A stretch of DNA of 64,000 nucleotides from Spirochaetes bacterium GWB1_60_80. Its GTDB lineage: Bacteria > Spirochaetota > Spirochaetia > Treponematales > UBA12059. Shown here piece by piece: positions 5,346 to 45,723 of this stretch. Location: contig MIAR01000032.1 of NCBI GenBank assembly GCA_001829185.1, positions 306,414-370,413 of the forward strand, written 5' to 3'. How positions within the stretch are numbered: the first letter of the stretch is position 1; each line of letters begins with the position of its first letter. A program made the translations under genes and the position numbers. The notes beneath the pieces are model-generated. The model was not told where the DNA came from, did no database searches, and saw nothing but the letters and a program-made list of their open reading frames with translations.

Positions 5346-6242
5346 TCAATCTGCCTGACCTCCTTTTACAGCATTGAACTCCGGCAGGTTGTAGCGGTGC
5401 TTGAGGGGCAGGAAGCTGCGCTGGCAGCGCGGGTTAGCTCTCTCGGCAATGGTAATCGTATCAAAATACTGCCGCCATAGTTCCTGGATGACGAGTTCGC
5501 CTGCCGAGTGGCGCAGATCCTGCGGATTGACGCTGAAGCCTTCCAGGAAGGCCAGCGCTTGGCCTGGCTGATGCAGGCAAGCGCGCCCGCGACCGCTGTC
5601 GTGCAGTATCCAGCGCTGGCCCGGGAAGCGGGCGGCGAAGTGTTCGGCCAGCCAGCCGATGACGTCGCAGGCCGGCTGGATGTCGGCGTACAGGCTGCCA
5701 TCGACCAGTTCGGCGAAGCGGCTGATACCCTTGAACAGGTTCAGCTCGCGGCAGCTGCGGGTGATGGCTTTTTGGACGACGATCACGGCCGGGGCGTCCA
5801 GGCGCTGTAGGGCGGTGGCGCCTTCGGCCCAGGCCAGACGCAGGACACGCGCCAGGGCGCTGTCCAGGCTGAGGCCGTTGGCTGCGCCGAGGTCGCTGGC
5901 CCAGGCTTGCTGCAGCCGCTCCAGGCAGTCGCTACCCAGGCGGGCCAACAAGCGCTGGTAACAGCGTTCAGCCCGATCCGGGTCGTTGTCTACCGGCACG
6001 CGGCTACCGAACAGGTCTGTTTGTTGGCCCGGGCGGCAGACGCCAGGCAGGCGTTCCTCCGGCAAGCCGGCGTGGAAGCGCAGGTTCAACAGCTCGGCCA
6101 TGGTACACAGCCAGCCGGAATAGCTGCCGTCGTATTCCAGGCTGTCGTCCGGCGCGGCAGCTAGGCTAGCGGCCGGCGCACCGGTTGAGCTGGCAGCTAA
6201 GCTGGCGGCCGGGGGGGCAAGCGGTGCGGTTCTCAGGTCCAT
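5346..6242 (-). CDS. TIGR03915-family putative DNA metabolism/repair protein (DUF4130), partner of the radical SAM DNA repair protein
   Basis: The family-typical N-terminus YDGSYSGWLCTMAEL follows an Ala/Pro-rich leader. It overlaps the upstream radical SAM gene by 10 bp. Confidence 0.75.
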   Translation of the reverse strand: MDLRTAPLAPPAASLAASSTGAPAASLAAAPDDSLEYDGSYSGWLCTMAELLNLRFHAGLPEERLPGVCRPGQQTDLFGSRVPVDNDPDRAERCYQRLLARLGSDCLERLQQAWASDLGAANGLSLDSALARVLRLAWAEGATALQRLDAPAVIVVQKAITRSCRELNLFKGISRFAELVDGSLYADIQPACDVIGWLAEHFAARFPGQRWILHDSGRGRACLHQPGQALAFLEGFSVNPQDLRHSAGELVIQELWRQYFDTITIAERANPRCQRSFLPLKHRYNLPEFNAVKGGQAD

Positions 6243-7978
6243 GCGAATTCCGTCTGGCCAGTACCGGCTAGCCCGCTGCTGATGAGCCCACTGCCGATGA
6301 GCCCAGGTAGGGCGCTGTCGCCGTCCAGCGTTAGGACGGCGCGCAGGCTACGCTCGCGGTCTAATAGGTCATGGTGGTAGACGCTCTGGCCGGAGCAGGT
6401 GATAAAATATTGCGCCCGCTTGAGCTGGATGCCTAGGCCGCGCAGCTTGTCGGGCTTCAGGCCGATCTGCCGCCGGGCCTGGATTATGCGCTTGGCGCCG
6501 ATCGGGCCTATACCAGGCACGCGCAGTAGTTGGTGGTAATCGGCTTTATTGATGTCGACCGGGAAATACTGCAGGTTGCGCAGGGCCCAGGCCGCCTTGG
6601 GGTCGAGCTGGCGGTCCAGGAAGGGTTCCTCCGGGCTGAGGATCTCGGCGGCGTTGAAGCCGTAGAAGCGGAACAGCCAGTCGGCCTGGTAGAGGCGATG
6701 CTCACGCAGCAGGTTGGTGGCGGTATCGATAGCCGCGCCAGACTGGTCGGCCATGACTGTCGGTGGATCGGCTGTTGCGCTCGGCATTAGCGTGGCGGTC
6801 GAGTCGCTGGCTGGGCTGGCGGCTGGTTCGGGAAGCCGTTTGGCGGCTGGGCCATTGGGCTGGGACCAGGCGGGCGGCAACAGGGGCGCTTGGACGCGGG
6901 TGTCGTCCCCGACCGGCATGTAGGCTGAATAGTAGACCCGTCGGACGTCGTAGGCCAGGTAGAGGTTTTCGGCTAGGTTGAGGATGGCGTAATCGCTTTC
7001 CGGGCTGGCGCCGATGACCATCTGGGTGGTCTGCCCGGCCGGCAGGAGCGCGGCCTGGGGGTTGCGCTGGCGGTTTTGGCGGGCGGCCCGGACGCTGGCC
7101 GGGTTCAGGCTGGGCACCGGCGCCTCGCGCAGTTCAAGCGTGGCGGCCCGATCCATGCCTGGCCAGTTGGCAGCCGGCGGCGCAGTGGCGGGGCGCGCGG
7201 CGGCTGGCAGGGTGGCAAGCTGACTTGCTGACTGGGCAGCGGCAGTTTGGCGCTCCGGCGACGTGGCGGCTGGCGGCAGGGTAGAGGCGCTGAGTTGCCT
7301 GGTCGGCGGGAGCGAGGTTGAGGGTAATACCAAGCGGCGTGGTTCGAAGCCGCCGGCCCGGGCCAGGCTGCGCATTGGCCGGAAAATGTCGGCCGGGAGT
7401 TTATCAGGGGCTACTAGGCGCAGGCTGGCGGCGCTGGGTAACTCGATATTGACCGAGGCGCGGTCGGCCCAGCGGGCGGCCTCCAGGATCAACTCGTCGC
7501 TGGCGCCGGGTATGACCTTGATGTGCAGGTAGCCGTTGAAGCGTTCGCGCTGGCGCAGCGACCGGGCGACGTGGATCAGCCGCTCCATGGTGGCATCCGG
7601 GCCGCCGCAGACGCCGGAGGACAGCAAGGCGCCTTCTATATAGTTGCGCCGGTAGAAGTCCATGATCAGGCGGACTAACTCTTCCGGCTCAAAGGCGCTG
7701 CGGGCGATGTCGTTGCTGCGGCGGTTGACGCAGTAGGCGCAATCGTAGGCGCAGGCGTTGCTGAGCAGCACCTTGAGCAAGGCTACGCAGCGACCGTCGG
7801 CCGACCAGCTGTGGCAGATACCGCTGACCGCCGCGTTGCCGATGCCACCGGGTTGGTTTTGTCGACCTGAACCAGAGGTGGAGCAGGAGGCGTCGTACTT
7901 GGCGGCGTTAGCCAGGATGGTCAGCTTGTGGTCGATCATACTTAACAACATAGTAGTATACATCTGTGTAGTGGTCAA
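6233..7978 (-). CDS. putative DNA modification/repair radical SAM protein (TIGR03916-like) with C-terminal helix-hairpin-helix; contains a long low-complexity insertion
   Basis: CAYDCAYC (CxxxCxxC) radical SAM motif near the N-terminus. The C-terminal HhH reads [17 protein letters not shown] ~150-aa Pro/Ala/Ser-rich segment sits between the two domains. Confidence 0.8.
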
Positions 7979-9459: not shown

Positions 9460-9544
9460 GGGCGCGAGTTCCACTCGGGCGCGAGTTCCACTCGGGCGCG
9501 AGTTCCACTCGGGCGCGAGTTCCACTCGGGCGCGAGTTCCACTC
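9460..9544. repeat. perfect tandem repeat, 5 x 17 bp (gggcgcgagttccactc)
   Basis: Five contiguous identical 17-mers with no spacers, in the eno downstream region, preceded by a hairpin ctaccgcagccatgcggtag. Confidence 0.9.
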
Positions 9545-9619
9545 GCGAGTACGCCGGCAAGAACGCCTTCTATAACATCAAGAAATAGTAACTGAGGGCG
9601 ATGGCCGCCAACGAGGCGA
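9545..9619. repeat. second copy of the eno 3' end plus downstream flank (direct duplication of 9350..9423)
   Basis: gagtacgccggcaagaacgccttctataacatcaagaaata and the following ggccgccaacgaggcga motif occur twice, flanking the 17-bp tandem array. Confidence 0.8.
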
Positions 9620-11142: not shown

Positions 11143-11451
11143 ATGATTATTACGTTGATCAAGGTCAAGGACGATGGCACCATCCTCTACTACACGCTGC
11201 ATGACCGGCAGCCACTGCTGATGGCCCGCTATGCGCTTTCGGTGGCTTGGCGCTCCGGCGAAGGCCAGGGGCGCGAGAAGATTTATGGTTTTGAGACCGT
11301 CGCCGAGATGGATCGCAAGATCCGGTCCTTGTTCAGCCGTCGCATCCGCGCTGGCTACAAACTGCTTTACAGCTTCATGCGCGAGCGGCCGGCTCACTCC
11401 GCCTCCGACGCCGAAATGGCAGCCATGCTGAAGCGGCGCAAGCTGAGTTAG
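11143..11451 (+). CDS. small WGR-domain protein
   Basis: About 80 aa with W..G....GR and AGYKLL, as in WGR domains. No other domain. Confidence 0.55.
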   Translation: MIITLIKVKDDGTILYYTLHDRQPLLMARYALSVAWRSGEGQGREKIYGFETVAEMDRKIRSLFSRRIRAGYKLLYSFMRERPAHSASDAEMAAMLKRRKLS

Positions 11452-11490
11452 CGGCGCTAACTAGCTAACGGCGCAAGCTGAGCTTGCGGC

Positions 11491-12786
11491 TCAGTCCTTG
11501 TCCAGTCCAGGGGGCTGGATGCGCTCCATGTCGATCAGCTGTTCGGCCAGCTTGCGTACGTTTTCGCGCAGCTTGAAGATGCAGTCGGTGATGACCACGT
11601 GGCCGCGCGCCACGTCTTCGGCGAAGGCCTTGCAGGTCGGCGCGCCGCAGGAGCCGCAGTCCAGGCCCGGCAGGCTGGCGTGAATCACTTCCATTTCTTC
11701 CATCATAATCATGGCCTTGAGCATGTCGGGGTGCAGCCGCAACGCCTCGCGCGCCTGGACGGGTTCTTCCCAGCCCAGTTCCAAGTCGTCGGCCGCCACT
11801 GGTGGCTGGCGATGGCCACGGCTAACGACGCGTCGCTCGCGGGCCCGCAGGCGGGCCCGGGCGATGTAGGGGTTCTCGACAGTTAGCGGACCGCCGACGC
11901 AGCCGGCCGGGCAGGCCAGGGCCTCGATGAAGGCGACGTTGGCCATTTTGCCGTTTTCTAGGGCCTCCAGCACGCTGATGACGTCGGCGATGCCGGAGAC
12001 ACTGATGCCGGCCGGATTGCCCACGGCGTCGCTCTCGCCGTCGATATGGGCCCAGGCGATGCCGCGGCCGCTGGCGTGGGCCAGCGGCAGTTCGACGGTG
12101 CCCGGTAGGGTGTTGCGCAGCGGTACGTAAATGTCCTTGATGCCGATGACGCCGTCCACGGCCGAAGTCTTTACGCCTTGCGGGTAGCGCGAGACGGTGA
12201 CCTTGCCGGCGCAGGGCGAGATGAAGAAGACGCCGACGTCGGCCCGGCCTGGGTAGAACCGCTCCTTTATCAGGCGGGCGGCTACTTCCATCGGGCTTTG
12301 GATCGGCATCAGGTTCTCGATCAGGCTGGGGAAGCGCACCTGGATCAGTTTGACGACGGCCGGACAAGCCGACGATATCATCGGCCCCTTGCATTGTCGC
12401 TGGTCGACGGACAGAGCGCCGGCGTTCGACACCAGCTCGGCCGCCCAGGCCACTTCCAGCACCTGGTCGAAGCCCAGGCCCTTGAGGGCGGACAGGATGC
12501 GGTCGATGGTGAACTTTTCATCAAACTGGCCGTAAAGGGTGGGCGCCGGGATGGCCACCCGGATATTGAAGCGCTCCATGGCGGCCAGCGGGTCGGAGAC
12601 GGCTTTCTTGGCGTTGTGGGGGCAGGCCCGGATGCACTCGCCGCAGTCGATGCAACGCTCGTCCATGATAATGGCCCGGCCTTTGCGTACCCGAATGGCT
12701 TCGGTGGGGCAATAGCGGATGCAGGTGGTGCAGCCGGTGCATTTGGCCGGATCGAGGGTTACCGAGTGGAAGGTCTGGCCGTTCAT
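11491..12786 (-). CDS. [FeFe]-hydrogenase-like protein (putative sensory, HydS-like; ferredoxin N-domain + H-cluster domain + C-terminal Cys4 cluster, no PAS)
   Basis: N-terminal 2x[4Fe-4S] motifs (CTGCTTCIRYCP, CIDCGECIRACP). H-domain motifs SSACPAVV (L1 variant), FISPCAGK (L2) and EALACPAGCVGG (L3). A C-terminal CGSCGAPTC...C cluster site. Confidence 0.8.
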   Translation of the reverse strand: MNGQTFHSVTLDPAKCTGCTTCIRYCPTEAIRVRKGRAIIMDERCIDCGECIRACPHNAKKAVSDPLAAMERFNIRVAIPAPTLYGQFDEKFTIDRILSALKGLGFDQVLEVAWAAELVSNAGALSVDQRQCKGPMISSACPAVVKLIQVRFPSLIENLMPIQSPMEVAARLIKERFYPGRADVGVFFISPCAGKVTVSRYPQGVKTSAVDGVIGIKDIYVPLRNTLPGTVELPLAHASGRGIAWAHIDGESDAVGNPAGISVSGIADVISVLEALENGKMANVAFIEALACPAGCVGGPLTVENPYIARARLRARERRVVSRGHRQPPVAADDLELGWEEPVQAREALRLHPDMLKAMIMMEEMEVIHASLPGLDCGSCGAPTCKAFAEDVARGHVVITDCIFKLRENVRKLAEQLIDMERIQPPGLDKD

Positions 12787-13217
12787 GGGGCCTTGGTGGT
12801 GCTGCCCGGCAGCGTGATACGGATGGTGACGGTGGTGCCTACGCCGACGGTCGACTCGATGCGCAGGTCGTCGGCATTACGCTTCATGTTGGGTAGTCCC
12901 ATGCCGGCGCCGAAACCCAGTTCGCGGGCCGCTTCCGGCGCGGTGGAATAGCCTTCCTGCATGGCCATGTCCAGGTCTGGGATGCCCGGACCGGAATCTT
13001 GCAGCCGGATGTCGATGCCGGCCGGTCCGATTTCGGCGTCGGCGCTGCCGCCATGAGCGTGGATGACCATGTTGATCTCGGCCTCGTACATGGCCACGGC
13101 GGTGCGCTTGATGGTGACCGGATCGATACCGAGTCGGCCGAGCGCTTTTTTCAGTTCGGAGCTGGCCTTACCGGCCAGGGAAAGATCGTCGCCGGGGACG
13201 TCGAAGTGCAGCTTCAT
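12783..13217 (-). CDS. GHKL-type ATPase / anti-sigma regulatory factor-like Ser/Thr kinase (RsbW/SpoIIAB-like)
   Basis: HATPase_c features in a 144-aa protein: N-box E...MVIHA, DSGPGIP, GFGAGMGL. Start overlaps the hydrogenase-like gene end (ATGA). Confidence 0.75.
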   Translation of the reverse strand: MKLHFDVPGDDLSLAGKASSELKKALGRLGIDPVTIKRTAVAMYEAEINMVIHAHGGSADAEIGPAGIDIRLQDSGPGIPDLDMAMQEGYSTAPEAARELGFGAGMGLPNMKRNADDLRIESTVGVGTTVTIRITLPGSTTKAP

Positions 13218-13227
13218 GGCTGGGAGC

Positions 13228-13587
13228 TCAGTAGCGTTCGCGCATGCCGCCTGAGCGGATGCCGGCCTCGTACAGTTTGCCGCAGGCTATGAACATGCTG
13301 AACCGGGTGGCGACAAGCGTCATGCCGTTGCTGGTCGCCTCGTCGATCATATCCTTAGTAACGGTTTTGCCGCGCACGAAGACGATGACCTTGATATCCA
13401 TCATTTCGGCGGTGCGGATGGCCTGGGGATTGACCAGACCGGTCAGCAGTACGACATGATCCTTGACGAAGGCCATGACGTCGCTCATCAGGTCAGCGCC
13501 GCAGGCCGAGCTGATTTCGGCGTCCAGGTTGGCGTCGCCGGTGAGCAAGGTGCCATCCAAGGTCTGTATGATATCGGAAACTTTCAT
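13228..13587 (-). CDS. DRTGG domain protein
   Basis: MKVSDII...GADLMSDV...VVLLTGLVNPQ...A pattern of DRTGG domains. RBS aagga upstream of the ATG at 13587. The track ORF extended further upstream. Confidence 0.7.
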   Translation of the reverse strand: MKVSDIIQTLDGTLLTGDANLDAEISSACGADLMSDVMAFVKDHVVLLTGLVNPQAIRTAEMMDIKVIVFVRGKTVTKDMIDEATSNGMTLVATRFSMFIACGKLYEAGIRSGGMRERY

Positions 13588-13801
13588 GCCTTGTCCTTGG
13601 TTAGCAAAGCGGCTGGTATTGGCCGTACTGCACTCTGATGTGTTATGATAATAACTAGAGTGTACCATGAGTGACAGTGTAGGGCAAGCTGCGTGGAGAC
13701 CACGGCGTGGAGACCACGGCGTGGTAACCACGGCGCTGGGGCTACGGCTTGCCACAAGTGGCGTTGTATGGTGATATGCTCATTATAACTCCGGAGGATA
13801 G

Positions 13802-43822: not shown

Positions 43823-44067
43823 CGATTTCTCCCCGCCTGGTTTGATTCTCGGACGCTGTACTATTTTCGCAGCCGGAGCGTATAGTACAGTATGGTTGAC
43901 TGGAGGGCAAGCCGAAGCGCCTGACGCCGGGGCTGACAGCCTGGCCGGTTTGACCAGGGCTTGCCGGGGATGCTACTATTGTCTCGGGCCGGAGATCGCT
44001 GGCGGCCGGGCATCGGGTCGCCCTGAAAGAGACAAAGCCTTCCGTCATTTTGCCTACAGGAGCTGTT

Positions 44068-45723
44068 ATGAAGCCAATCGTTTATGTGCTCGGCCATAAG
44101 AATCCGGATACCGACTCGGTGGTTTCGGCCACGGCCTACGCCCACCTGAAATGCGAGCTTGGCCAGACCGACTGCGTGGCGGCCCGGGCCGGCGCCATGA
44201 ACCCGCAGGCCGAGTACATCTTTGAGCGCTTCAAGGTGCCTTTCCCGGTCTTCATACCCGATCTTCTACCTAAAGTGGAGTACTATCTGGGCGCTTCGCC
44301 GGTGCTGGTGGACCGCGGCACGCCGTTGTGGGACGCCTTGTCCCTGATGAACTCCGGCAACCAGAAGGCCCTACCTATCGTCGACAGCGACGGCCGTTAC
44401 CGGGCGATGCTCCATTACTCCTCGTTTGCCCAGAACATCCTCAAGAAGATCAACCCGCACAAGAAAGCGGTCATCCCCACCAGCCTGGGACGGCTGCTGG
44501 CCACCATCAAGGCTCAGCCGGTGGCCGTCTTCGACCCCGAGGAGCAGTTCAAGGCCCGTATCCTGGTGGCCGCCCTGGAAATGCCGACCTTCAAACAGCA
44601 TCTGGACGCCGAGGACGCTTCCAACGTGGTGGTCATCGTCGGCGACCGCCTGGACGTGCAGCGCTACGCCATCGAGTCCAAGGTGCGGCTACTGCTGCTG
44701 ACCAACGGCGTGCTGCTGAGTAAGGAGCTCAAGGCCCTGGCCGAGGTTAATCGGGTGTCGGTGCTGGTCTCGCCCTACGACACTTCCAGCACCTCGCTCT
44801 TGGTGATCTACTCCACGCCGGTGGAGACGATGGGCGACGCCAGCATCCATAGCATCCCGCTGCACGAGCCGATGAAGAAGGCGCGCGAGGCCATTAACGC
44901 CTCGCCCAGCCGCTCGGTGCCGGTGGTGGACGAGGATGGCCGGGTGGTTGGCCTGTTCACGGAAGGCGACCTGATCCGCGAGCCCAACCTGTCGCTGATT
45001 CTGGTGGACCACAACGAGCTGAGCCAGGCCGTGGACGGCGCCGAGCATTACCGCATCCTGGAGGTGATAGACCACCACCGGCTGGGCGCCTTTGCCACCC
45101 GCTATCCGATAACTTTTATTAACCGAGTGGTGGGCTCCACCAGCACCATGGTGGCCGACATGTTCCGCGCCGAGAAGATACCCTTGCCCCGACCCCTGGC
45201 CGCCTTGCTGTTGGGCGGCATTCTGTCCGACACCCTGGTGCTGAAGTCGGCTACCACCACCGGCCTGGACGTGGACATGGCCGAGTACCTGGCCAACATC
45301 AGCGACCTGGAGATCGACGAATTCGGCCGCGACATCATGAGCTCGGCCAGCCTGGTGGCCAGCAAGCCGGTCGACGAGATCGTCGGCCTGGACATGAAGG
45401 AATACCAGGCCGCCGGCTTCGGCTTTACCATCAGCCAGGTGGAGGTCAACGCCCCGGCCGAGATACTGGAGCGCCGCGAGGAGCTGCTGGCCACCCTGGA
45501 CGGCTTACGCAAGGCTGGCGGCCATTTCTTCAGCGCCTTGATGGTCACCGACATCACCGAACTGTCCAGCATCCTGTTTATCCAAGGCGACAAAGAGATG
45601 CTGGCCGCCCTGCGCTGGCCGCGGCTGGAGCCGGGGGTGTTCGAGCTCAAGGACGTGCTGTCGCGCAAGAAGCAGCTGGCGCCGGTGTTGATCGAGCTGG
45701 TGGAGAAGCTGGCGGGAGACTGA
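44068..45723 (+). CDS. putative manganese-dependent inorganic pyrophosphatase (DHH-DHHA2) with CBS and DRTGG insert domains
   Basis: DHH motif VLGHKNPDTDSV. A CBS pair and a DRTGG-like region (VVIVGDR). LVDHNE. DHHA2 C-terminal domain. RBS caggag before ATG 44068. Confidence 0.85.
   Translation: MKPIVYVLGHKNPDTDSVVSATAYAHLKCELGQTDCVAARAGAMNPQAEYIFERFKVPFPVFIPDLLPKVEYYLGASPVLVDRGTPLWDALSLMNSGNQKALPIVDSDGRYRAMLHYSSFAQNILKKINPHKKAVIPTSLGRLLATIKAQPVAVFDPEEQFKARILVAALEMPTFKQHLDAEDASNVVVIVGDRLDVQRYAIESKVRLLLLTNGVLLSKELKALAEVNRVSVLVSPYDTSSTSLLVIYSTPVETMGDASIHSIPLHEPMKKAREAINASPSRSVPVVDEDGRVVGLFTEGDLIREPNLSLILVDHNELSQAVDGAEHYRILEVIDHHRLGAFATRYPITFINRVVGSTSTMVADMFRAEKIPLPRPLAALLLGGILSDTLVLKSATTTGLDVDMAEYLANISDLEIDEFGRDIMSSASLVASKPVDEIVGLDMKEYQAAGFGFTISQVEVNAPAEILERREELLATLDGLRKAGGHFFSALMVTDITELSSILFIQGDKEMLAALRWPRLEPGVFELKDVLSRKKQLAPVLIELVEKLAGD

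What the first reader, a model, noticed from the sequence alone, without database searches (positions are those of the whole stretch)
11491..13587. Putative H2/redox-sensing partner-switch module: PAS-less HydS-like [FeFe]-hydrogenase-like protein + GHKL anti-sigma-like kinase + DRTGG protein
A three-gene minus-strand operon (DRTGG, then HATPase_c kinase, then hydrogenase-like) with 4-bp overlaps. The hydrogenase-like protein keeps H-cluster motifs L2 (FISPCAGK) and L3 (EALACPAGCVGG). Motif L1 reads SSACP instead of TSCCP, so the Cys that relays protons to the H-cluster bridgehead is replaced by Ala. The protein has an N-terminal 2x[4Fe-4S] ferredoxin domain and an extra C-terminal CxxCx4C...C cluster, but lacks the PAS domain of characterised sensory HydS proteins. 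No hydrogenase maturase genes (hydEFG) are in the window. Together with an RsbW/SpoIIAB-like kinase, this suggests a non-catalytic H2 or redox sensor feeding a partner-switching cascade. Output and cognate antagonist/sigma factor are absent from the window.
Basis: partly seen in the sequence, partly recalled or inferred. Interest (0 to 1): 0.72.

Follow-up and report, generated by a model that had tools for sequence, protein, structure and literature searches.

The report
Kinase-linked hydrogen-sensor-type hydrogenase operon
This is a real three-gene operon encoding a known but poorly understood class of hydrogenase-like protein thought to sense hydrogen gas, with its two usual partners (a small kinase-like ATPase and a DRTGG protein); here it sits in a spirochaete, away from any hydrogenase enzyme genes.

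Summary
Three co-directional minus-strand genes encode a DRTGG protein (13228-13587), a SpoIIAB-like GHKL kinase (12783-13217) and a 431-aa [FeFe]-hydrogenase-like protein (11491-12786).

The hydrogenase-like protein is not a new kind. It is a Group D ('M2e', HydDB 'C1 histidine kinase-linked') putative sensory [FeFe]-hydrogenase, the class of the characterised TamHydS. Every published hallmark is met, including the Cys-to-Ala change, which is the family norm.

In 80 species genomes the kinase gene lies directly upstream of the hydrogenase gene in 76 of 77 assessable loci. Of the 150 best kinase relatives, 50 are natural kinase-hydrogenase fusions, 9 are DRTGG-kinase fusions and 29 are CBS-kinase fusions. 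This argues for one physical complex.

Clostridia usually add a second DRTGG gene, a PHP phosphoesterase and the bifurcating hydABC genes. Spirochaetes, including this window, carry only the bare module.

TamHydS turns over H2, its key residues are conserved here, and no adjacent STAS, PP2C or sigma partner was found.

Verdict: new member of a known kind, moderate interest.

The parts
11491..12786 (-). Group D (M2e) [FeFe]-hydrogenase-like protein, 431 aa, HydS-type putative H2 sensor
   Evidence: ORF. Pfam Fer4 x2 + Fe_hyd_lg_C (1.2e-35) + FeS (9e-14), no PAS. PDB phmmer to [FeFe]-hydrogenases at 1e-20. 46% identity to a TamHydS-like Thermoanaerobacteraceae orthologue, with all Group D hallmark residues except the two outer proton-path positions. 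Exact match to 'hypothetical protein A2087_06560, Spirochaetes bacterium GWD1_61_31'.
12610..12759 (-). N-terminal 2x[4Fe-4S] ferredoxin domain (residues 10-59; Cys16/19/22/26 and Cys45/48/51/55)
   Evidence: Pfam Fer4 family hits. All eight Cys invariant in alignment A1.
11887..12558 (-). H-domain (residues 77-300). L1 SSACP (Ala140 at the relay position, Cys141 ligand), L2 FISPCAGK (Ser190 for Met353, Cys192, Lys195), L3 EALACPAGCVGG (Leu290 for Met497, Cys292, Cys296). Also Glu251 and Glu288.
   Evidence: AF2 pLDDT is 70-93 over most of this domain.
11575..11673 (-). C-terminal Cx2Cx4Cx16C cluster motif (Cys377/380/385/402, flanking Asp376/Asp401, Glu390/Asp391)
   Evidence: Pfam FeS PF04060. 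Translation. Invariant in A1 and in all 79 relatives. Matches the TamHydS description in PMC13104023.
12783..13217 (-). SpoIIAB/RsbW-like single-domain GHKL kinase/ATPase, 144 aa; overlaps the hydrogenase start by 4 bp
   Evidence: Pfam HATPase_c_2 2.6e-10. Best solved relative is SpoIIAB, 3e-7, with N-box E/N, DxGxG and GxGxG aligned. Directly upstream of the hydrogenase gene in 76/77 assessable loci. Fused to the hydrogenase in 50 of the 150 best relatives.
13228..13587 (-). Stand-alone DRTGG-fold protein, 119 aa; 10-nt gap to the kinase start
   Evidence: Pfam DRTGG E=2e-3 for this protein, but 18/18 relatives hit DRTGG. AF2 pLDDT 81.7 with top fold match 2IOJ (DRTGG), TM 0.81. Upstream of the kinase in 11/16 Spirochaetota and 53/56 Bacillota loci. 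DRTGG-kinase fusions exist.
13659..13687 (-). Promoter-like element: -35 TTGCCC (13687-13682), 17-nt spacer, TG (13667-13666), -10 TACACT (13664-13659)
   Evidence: Read from the sequence. The same TTGnCC-17/18-TGnTAnACT arrangement recurs upstream of the DRTGG gene in related spirochaete loci. Inferred, not tested; the simple scan did not list it.
11432..11490 (.). 18-bp tandem repeat with a palindromic core, directly after the hydrogenase stop, between convergent genes; possible transcript end
   Evidence: TRF and sequence. No T-run, so a terminator function is only inferred.

Best explanation
The three genes form one transcription unit encoding a signalling module built around a Group D (M2e) [FeFe]-hydrogenase.

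Proposed mechanism:
- The hydrogenase-like protein binds an H-cluster whose pocket is tuned for slow turnover and stable H2-dependent states. The relay Cys is Ala, Met353 is Ser and Met497 is Leu.
- It is physically bound to the small SpoIIAB-like GHKL kinase/ATPase encoded just upstream.
- The H2 (or redox) state of the hydrogenase changes the kinase's ATP-dependent activity or its binding to a target.
- The DRTGG protein is a third subunit on the other side of the kinase. It is more likely a regulatory or ligand-binding input (as DRTGG and CBS are in CBS-pyrophosphatase) than a STAS-like phospho-acceptor.
- The downstream target is not encoded nearby in spirochaetes.

Shown: class membership, operon structure, near-universal kinase-hydrogenase adjacency, and natural fusions in the order DRTGG-kinase-hydrogenase.

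Inferred: H2 as the signal (from published TamHydS biochemistry), a direct complex, the direction of signalling, and the role of DRTGG.
For: Class membership:
- All Group D hallmarks are present, checked against the definitions in PMC8163306, PMC10407848 and PMC13104023.
- The relatives cluster apart from catalytic HydA in a neighbour-joining tree.

Coupling:
- The kinase gene is adjacent upstream in 76/77 assessable loci across Spirochaetota, Bacillota and one MAG labelled Desulfobulbaceae.
- A 4-bp ATGA overlap joins the two genes here.
- Of the 150 best kinase cluster representatives among 1.84 billion proteins, 50 are kinase-hydrogenase fusions, 9 DRTGG-kinase, 29 CBS-kinase and 1 DRTGG-CBS-kinase. 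The domain order equals the gene order.
- PMC11406978 independently reports HATPase_C fused to 'C1' hydrogenases.

Signalling context elsewhere:
- Histidine kinase + OmpR regulator, then kinase, hydrogenase and a hydrogenase-MCP fusion (L037).
- CheW upstream (L039); receiver domains upstream (L024, L032); Rex upstream (L084).
- In Bacillota the module precedes a PHP gene and hydABC.

Published biochemistry for the class: low turnover, raised H2 affinity, H2-induced structural change.

The kinase keeps its ATP-binding motifs.
Against: - No experiment has shown H2 sensing or signalling for any Group D enzyme.
- The published work found the C-terminal cluster is not reduced by H2, and the interaction partner is still called unknown.
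- No output (substrate, sigma factor, DNA-binding protein) is linked in spirochaetes, and the PHP phosphoesterase common in Bacillota is absent here.
- Whether this genome has the hydEFG maturases could not be checked.
- In the window protein, two outer residues of the proposed Group D proton path differ (Ile248 for Ser249, Ser264 for Asp265).
- Some fused relatives have lost Lys358 (P0254), so not all family members need bind a complete H-cluster.
Confidence: 0.6

Rival explanations
1. The hydrogenase is the regulated enzyme, not the sensor. It is a slow but real H2-evolving or H2-oxidising hydrogenase, and the kinase and DRTGG protein switch its activity according to energy or nucleotide state.
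For: TamHydS catalyses reversible H+/H2 interconversion. The catalytically important E252 and E289 equivalents are conserved. The N-terminal ferredoxin-type clusters form a normal electron-transfer path. CBS and DRTGG domains, which regulate CBS-pyrophosphatase in response to adenine nucleotides (abstracts), are fused to the kinase in relatives.
Against: Reported rates are low. In Bacillota the gene sits in front of a dedicated high-activity hydABC. It also occurs beside chemotaxis and two-component genes. Both contexts fit a sensor better than a second enzyme.
Confidence: 0.2
2. It is a classical partner-switching module. The kinase would be an anti-sigma factor that phosphorylates an antagonist and releases a sigma factor encoded elsewhere, with DRTGG standing in for the STAS antagonist.
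For: SpoIIAB is the closest solved relative, and the SpoIIAB model is the best NCBIfam hit. One related locus has a STAS gene 2.5 kb upstream (L056). A Ser in the DLMSDV motif of the DRTGG protein (Ser35) is invariant. A sigma-70-family gene exists in the window at 60073-60702.
Against: The SpoIIAB model score of 51.7 is far below its cut-off of 135. No STAS, PP2C or sigma gene recurs among the neighbour gene families of the 80 loci. DRTGG has a different fold from STAS. DRTGG and CBS are fused N-terminally to the kinase, as regulatory domains usually are. The window's sigma gene is 47 kb away beside a GGDEF gene.
Confidence: 0.1
3. It is an Fe-S redox or O2 sensor without a [2Fe] subcluster. 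In this organism the protein would carry only [4Fe-4S] clusters and report ferredoxin or redox state rather than H2.
For: No hydE/F/G in 64 kb. Some fused relatives lack Lys358, which binds the subcluster cyanide in catalytic enzymes. PMC11406978 could hardly find H-cluster motifs in its fused 'C1' proteins. Rex lies upstream in L084.
Against: The window protein keeps all four H-cluster cysteines, Lys195 and the pocket residues E251 and E288 that contact the subcluster bridgehead in the TamHydS model. Maturase genes are commonly unlinked to hydrogenase genes (general knowledge), so their absence from the window says little.
Confidence: 0.1

Closest known systems
TamHydS of Thermoanaerobacter mathranii (Group D / M2e [FeFe]-hydrogenase)
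   Same: Same domain order: 2x[4Fe-4S], H-domain, Cx2Cx4Cx16C, no PAS. Same pocket substitutions: Cys299 to Ala, Met353 to Ser, Met497 to Leu. Same E252/E289, D378/D403, E392/D393 and R30/R32 equivalents. About 45% identity. A GHKL ATPase gene is adjacent.
   Different: Spirochaete rather than Firmicute. Not upstream of hydABC, no PHP gene, no second DRTGG gene, no AraC regulator. Ser249 and Asp265 equivalents are Ile and Ser.
HydDB [FeFe] Group C1, 'histidine kinase-linked (putative)'
   Same: A sensory-type [FeFe]-hydrogenase defined by linkage to a kinase-like gene, with function listed as undetermined. PMC11406978 describes C1 proteins without PAS, some fused to HATPase_C.
   Different: The equivalence of C1 with Group D is my inference; I could not run the HydDB classifier. 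The linked protein is a single GHKL domain without a HisKA/DHp phospho-acceptor domain, so 'histidine kinase' is a misnomer.
Group C (M2f) sensory hydrogenases: TmHydS, R. albus HydS, T. saccharolyticum HfsB
   Same: Relay Cys lost, altered Met353/Met497, C-terminal four-Cys cluster, proposed H2 sensing, often near hydABC.
   Different: Those carry a C-terminal PAS domain and are linked to PP2C phosphatases or Ser/Thr kinases. This protein has no PAS.
SpoIIAB / RsbW anti-sigma factor kinases (partner switching)
   Same: Single-domain GHKL fold of about 145 aa with conserved N, G1 and G2 boxes. SpoIIAB is the closest solved structure.
   Different: Below the SpoIIAB family cut-off. No adjacent STAS, PP2C or sigma partners. 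The partners are a hydrogenase-like protein and a DRTGG protein instead.
Regulatory [NiFe]-hydrogenase HoxBC with HoxJ kinase and HoxA (Cupriavidus necator)
   Same: The same logic: a low-activity hydrogenase bound to a kinase reports H2 (described).
   Different: Unrelated metal site and proteins. HoxJ is a true histidine kinase with a PAS domain and a cognate response regulator. No response regulator is linked here.
DRTGG domain of CBS-pyrophosphatase (3L2B) and AF1212 (2IOJ)
   Same: Same fold (TM 0.70-0.81).
   Different: Here it is a stand-alone 119-aa protein with its own conserved motif SACGxDLMSDV...LLTGL. No ligand or function is known.

Membership tests
Group D (M2e) [FeFe]-hydrogenase | [quoted passage not shown] | tested here: met
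   Fer4 family hits and eight invariant Cys.
Group D (M2e) [FeFe]-hydrogenase | H-domain with the four H-cluster cysteines (CpI C300, C355, C499, C503) | tested here: met
   Fe_hyd_lg_C 1.2e-35. C141, C192, C292 and C296 are aligned to solved hydrogenases and invariant.
Group D (M2e) [FeFe]-hydrogenase | Proton-relay Cys299 not conserved | tested here: met
   Ala140 aligns with DdH Cys178. Relatives have Ala (68) or Ser (10), never Cys at the relay position, out of 79.
Group D (M2e) [FeFe]-hydrogenase | Met353 replaced by a hydroxyl residue (Ser/Thr) | tested here: met
   Ser190 in ISPC. Relatives: Ser 44, Thr 35, of 79. Feature as stated in PMC8163306.
Group D (M2e) [FeFe]-hydrogenase | C-terminal Cx2Cx4Cx16C motif | tested here: met
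   C377/C380/C385/C402 with exact spacing.
Group D (M2e) [FeFe]-hydrogenase | No PAS domain | tested here: met
   No PAS hit in Pfam or NCBIfam. The protein ends 29 residues after the last cluster Cys.
Group D (M2e) [FeFe]-hydrogenase | Group-D-specific Glu at TamHydS 252, plus Glu289 | tested here: met
   E251 and E288, invariant in A1, mapped through a TamHydS-like orthologue. The outer path residues S249 and D265 are Ile and Ser here.
Group D (M2e) [FeFe]-hydrogenase | Binds a complete H-cluster and reacts with H2 | not testable with these tools
   Needs expression, maturation and FTIR/EPR. The maturase content of the genome is unknown.
Group C (M2f) sensory [FeFe]-hydrogenase | C-terminal PAS domain after the four-Cys cluster | tested here: not met
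   No PAS.
SpoIIAB/RsbW partner-switching module | GHKL kinase of the anti-sigma factor family | tested here: inconclusive
   HATPase_c_2 passes Pfam (40.8 bits against a cut-off of 27.4). SpoIIAB is the best PDB hit at 3e-7. TIGR01925 scores 51.7 against a cut-off of 135.
SpoIIAB/RsbW partner-switching module | STAS-domain antagonist as kinase substrate | tested here: not met
   None in the window. None among the recurrent neighbour gene families of the 80 loci; one STAS gene 2.5 kb away in L056. The third gene has a DRTGG fold.
SpoIIAB/RsbW partner-switching module | PP2C phosphatase and a cognate sigma factor | tested here: not met
   No PP2C in the window. The only sigma-70-family gene is 47 kb away. 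Bacillota relatives carry a PHP gene, not PP2C. The rest of the genome was not searched.
DRTGG domain family (PF07085) | Sequence match to the family model | tested here: inconclusive
   The window protein scores 18.2 bits against a cut-off of 25.2. 18/18 relatives match at E<=0.01, best 2.9e-10. Many homologues carry a precomputed PF07085 annotation.
DRTGG domain family (PF07085) | DRTGG fold | tested here: met
   AF2 pLDDT 81.7. Foldseek top hit 2IOJ 'Pfam DRTGG', TM 0.81, then the CBS-PPase DRTGG domain.

The most novel reading that the evidence does not exclude
DRTGG protein, GHKL kinase and Group D hydrogenase would form a self-contained, ATP-driven H2-signalling complex. It would combine H2 level (through the H-cluster) with a second input (through DRTGG or CBS) and act on unlinked targets. 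That would be a third bacterial H2-signalling design, distinct from the HoxJ/HoxA two-component system and the PAS-HydS/PP2C system. The spirochaete three-gene form would be its minimal version, and it would identify the long-sought interaction partner of Group D hydrogenases.
Probability: 0.35. Interest if true: 0.6.

Novelty: new member of a known kind. Interest (0 to 1): 0.35.

Why it matters
How fermenting and syntrophic anaerobes sense H2 is unresolved. The 2026 TamHydS study states that identifying the interaction partner of Group D hydrogenases is the critical next step.

This window adds nothing categorically new. The comparative work it prompted points firmly at the adjacent GHKL kinase as that partner, through near-universal adjacency and frequent natural fusions. 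It places the DRTGG protein on the kinase's other side.

The spirochaete version is stripped of hydABC, PHP and the second DRTGG gene. It shows the three-gene core can stand alone, so it probably controls something other than a neighbouring hydrogenase. It would make a compact construct for reconstitution.

Tried and rejected
- Calusinska et al. 2010, the original M2e description, is not held in the library, so its statements on kinase linkage are not cited.
- A sequence search of solved structures with the DRTGG protein gave only E=0.3. It was replaced by family-level Pfam and a fold search.
- The AF2 model of the hydrogenase-like protein (12-sequence alignment) was confident only in the H-domain; both Fe-S termini had pLDDT below 50. 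I did not use it for domain packing and ran no fold search on it.
- The TamHydS coding sequence in the supplement is corrupted by text extraction (frameshifts). Residue mapping therefore went through a near-identical Thermoanaerobacteraceae orthologue, L051.
- The palindromic 14-bp tandem repeat upstream of the promoter was tested as a possible conserved operator. It is absent from related loci and has no other exact copy in the window, so it is reported only in passing.
- The whole source genome could not be searched for hydEFG, hydABC, PHP, STAS or PP2C.
- Two Pfam calls failed on wrong coordinates, one paper look-up failed on a too-short term, and two literature searches failed on term syntax.
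- No paper in the searchable library combines DRTGG with hydrogenase, or [FeFe]-hydrogenase with RsbW/SpoIIAB.
Full report
**What is in the sequence**

Three co-directional ORFs lie on the minus strand. They are a 119-aa protein (13228-13587), a 144-aa protein (12783-13217) and a 431-aa protein (11491-12786).

The middle and last genes overlap by 4 bp (ATGA). The 119-aa start is supported by three things: an AAGGA site before the ATG, homologues that begin MK(V/L)xDI, and public gene calls on three assemblies.

A sigma-70-like promoter (TTGCCC, 17 nt, TG-n-TACACT; 13687-13659) lies 72 nt upstream. A similar arrangement recurs in related spirochaete loci. A palindromic 18-bp repeat follows the last stop codon. 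Flanking genes are divergent or convergent and unrelated: an Imp-YgjV-like membrane protein, a 102-aa ORF, patatin and enolase. This is therefore a self-contained three-gene unit.

The exact 431-aa protein is 'hypothetical protein A2087_06560' of Spirochaetes bacterium GWD1_61_31, a groundwater MAG.

**The hydrogenase-like protein**

Pfam finds two Fer4 motifs, Fe_hyd_lg_C (E=1.2e-35) and the C-terminal FeS domain PF04060 (E=9e-14). There is no PAS domain.

Alignment to the Desulfovibrio hydrogenase puts Ala140 on the proton-relay Cys and Cys141 on the cubane ligand. One of the PDB hits is the engineered C178A variant, with the same TSACP-type sequence. The motifs are:
- L1: SSACP.
- L2: FISPCAGK, with Ser for Met353.
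- L3: EALACPAGCVGG, with Leu for Met497.
- C-terminus: C377-x2-C380-x4-C385-x16-C402.

These are exactly the published hallmarks of the M2e / Group D class, whose only characterised member is TamHydS. They include the conserved Ser/Thr at position 353, Leu at 497 and the absence of PAS (PMC8163306).

Mapping through a TamHydS-like orthologue (L051, 46% identical) shows further conserved residues. These are the Group-D-specific Glu252 (E251 here), Glu289 (E288), Asp378/Asp403 (D376/D401), Glu392/Asp393 (E390/D391) and Arg30/Arg32 (R32/R34). The two outer residues of the proposed Group D proton path differ: Ile248 and Ser264.

Across 79 relatives the relay position is Ala (68) or Ser (10) and never Cys. 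Position 353 is Ser (44) or Thr (35). The C-terminal motif is universal.

**The two partners**

The 144-aa protein is a single GHKL domain (HATPase_c_2, E=2.6e-10). Its closest solved relative is SpoIIAB (E=3e-7), with the N-box Glu/Asn, DxGxG and GxGxG aligned. It scores far below the SpoIIAB family cut-off (51.7 against 135). It has no HisKA domain, so 'histidine kinase' in the literature is loose wording.

The 119-aa protein scores below the Pfam DRTGG threshold on its own. However, all 18 relatives tested hit DRTGG (best E=2.9e-10). An AF2 model (pLDDT 81.7) matches the DRTGG structures 2IOJ (TM 0.81) and the CBS-pyrophosphatase DRTGG domain (TM 0.70-0.72), followed by the N-terminal domain of HPr kinase. 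It does not have a STAS fold.

The DRTGG family has a strongly conserved motif, SACGxDLMSDV...LLTGL..PQ.IRTA.

**Conservation of the arrangement**

A scan of one genome per species found at least 596 stretches encoding relatives of the hydrogenase. I analysed the best 80 loci.

| Feature | Spirochaetota | Bacillota |
|---|---|---|
| Kinase gene within 450 bp upstream | 17/17 | 58/59 |
| DRTGG gene upstream of the kinase | 11/16 | 53/56 |
| Second DRTGG gene downstream | 0/15 | 45/59 |
| PHP phosphoesterase downstream | 0/15 | 50/59 |
| hydA or hydB within 10 kb (both flanks at least 8 kb) | 0/7 | 20/31 |

The one MAG labelled Desulfobulbaceae also has the kinase upstream, giving 76/77 overall. 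The Spirochaetota counts include the window.

In Bacillota the usual continuation is the bifurcating hydrogenase genes: hydC, a 185-aa HATPase, a small 2Fe-2S protein, hydB and hydA. Spirochaetes have none of these within 10 kb.

A neighbour-joining tree without support values places all these proteins far from catalytic HydA. The spirochaete sequences, together with that of the MAG labelled Desulfobulbaceae (L042), form one clade beside the Bacillota clade.

A spirochaete sub-branch with SSSCP and EAMAC motifs mostly lacks DRTGG. There the kinase-hydrogenase pair follows ECF-transporter or receiver-domain genes.

**Fusions**

I searched the kinase against 1.84 billion cluster representatives. 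It gave 2351 hits at E<=1e-3 and 713 at E<=1e-10. The best 150 break down as follows:
- 62 stand-alone kinases.
- 50 kinase-hydrogenase fusions of roughly 510-590 aa when full length, with some shorter, probably cut.
- 29 CBS-kinase fusions.
- 9 DRTGG-kinase fusions.
- 1 DRTGG-CBS-kinase fusion.

These counts come from profile searches. Pfam confirmed them on samples, except that the one DRTGG-kinase fusion scanned (P0250) gave no Pfam DRTGG hit; its DRTGG part rests on the profile search and the sequence itself.

The domain order in fusions equals the gene order here: DRTGG, kinase, hydrogenase. A CBS-kinase gene sits between a DRTGG gene and a Group D hydrogenase gene, downstream of Rex, in locus L084. 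An independent paper notes HATPase_C fused to HydDB 'C1' hydrogenases in Hydrogenedentota (PMC11406978).

Adjacency and fusions together are the strongest evidence that the kinase binds the hydrogenase-like protein directly. They also suggest that DRTGG binds the kinase.

**Mechanism**

The best-supported reading is a signalling complex. The H-cluster state of a slow, H2-affine hydrogenase modulates a GHKL kinase/ATPase, and DRTGG acts as an added regulatory subunit.

Evidence that H2 is the signal is published and indirect: TamHydS has low rates, raised H2 affinity and an H2-induced structural change.

The sensor reading is helped by the company the pair keeps elsewhere: a histidine kinase with an OmpR regulator and a hydrogenase-MCP fusion, CheW, receiver domains, and Rex.

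Nothing here shows what the kinase acts on. In spirochaetes no output is linked.

'Non-catalytic' conflicts with TamHydS activity and with the conserved E251 and E288.

**Rest of the window**

No hydE/F/G, hydABC, PHP, PP2C or STAS was found among the scanned ORFs of at least 110 aa. A canonical CBS-DRTGG family II pyrophosphatase (44050-45723) and a sigma-70-family gene beside a GGDEF gene (60073-61809) are present but unlinked. The rest of the genome could not be searched.

**Comparison and verdict**

This is a Group D (M2e) [FeFe]-hydrogenase with its usual kinase. It probably corresponds to HydDB class 'C1, histidine kinase-linked (putative)', whose function is listed as undetermined; that equivalence is my inference. 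The kinase and phosphatase genes upstream of bifurcating hydrogenases in clostridia have also been remarked on before (PMC3492117).

What is not in the searchable literature:
- The DRTGG partner.
- The scale of the fusions.
- The bare three-gene form in Spirochaetota. The published list of 70 Group D enzymes contains no name beginning Spirochaet- or Treponema.

I rate it a new member of a known kind. Interest is moderate (0.35): the class is real, widespread and mechanistically unsolved, but the finding as stated re-describes published features.

Noticed in passing
window 13691-13735: 14-bp tandem repeat, 3.2 copies (unit CCACGCCGTGGTCT on the minus strand, palindromic core CCACG-C-CGTGG), just upstream of the operon's -35 element. 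It could be a regulator binding site. It is not conserved in related spirochaete loci and has no other exact copy in the window.
   Followed up: partly
window 9460-9545: Perfect 17-bp tandem repeat, 5.1 copies (GGGCGCGAGTTCCACTC), in the gap between the enolase and patatin genes. No function is evident.
   Followed up: no
window 11432-11490: 18-bp repeat, 3.3 copies, with a palindromic core (GCAAGCT-C-AGCTTGC), between the convergent hydrogenase-like gene and the 102-aa ORF. It overlaps the 3' end of that ORF (11143-11451). Possibly a bidirectional transcript end without a T-run.
   Followed up: partly
window 44050-45723 (+): A canonical family II pyrophosphatase with a CBS-DRTGG regulatory insert (DHH, DRTGG 1.4e-16, CBS, DHHA2). 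The genome therefore carries DRTGG in its classical context as well as in the stand-alone hydrogenase-linked form.
   Followed up: no
window 60073-60702 (-) and 60724-61809 (-): A sigma-70-family protein (regions 2 and 4 only, 209 aa) directly downstream of a GGDEF diguanylate cyclase. A stand-alone receiver-domain gene lies at 56966-57343. All are 43-47 kb from the finding, with no evidence of a link.
   Followed up: no
window 5346-7978 (-): Gene pair encoding a radical-SAM/HHH_3 protein (581 aa) and a DUF4130 protein (298 aa). This is not HydE or HydG.
   Followed up: no
L037 11398-13311: In a Clostridia MAG the kinase and Group D hydrogenase pair is followed by a second hydrogenase-like protein fused to an MCP signalling domain, and preceded by a dCache-GAF-PAS histidine kinase and an OmpR regulator. 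Two different putative H2 sensors sit in one cluster.
   Followed up: partly
L012-L083 (Bacillota loci), e.g. L066 7264-7821: A second, 185-aa HATPase_c protein is conserved between hydC and the small 2Fe-2S gene inside the hydABC cluster. It is distinct from the kinase next to the sensor, and its role is unknown.
   Followed up: no
P0254, P0258, P0280 (kinase-hydrogenase fusion proteins): The fused forms keep the four H-cluster cysteines and the relay Ala. In P0254 Lys358 is replaced by Gln. In P0254 and P0258 the L3 motif also diverges (ACDEAC, ACDQGC). These fused forms may not bind a normal [2Fe] subcluster.
   Followed up: partly
L005, L006, L007, L009, L010, L011, L017 (about 1-2.5 kb downstream of the hydrogenase gene): A glycoside hydrolase of about 490 aa (MGH1-like / trehalase-like) recurs downstream of the module in spirochaete loci but not in this window. 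This is probably lineage synteny rather than a functional link.
   Followed up: no
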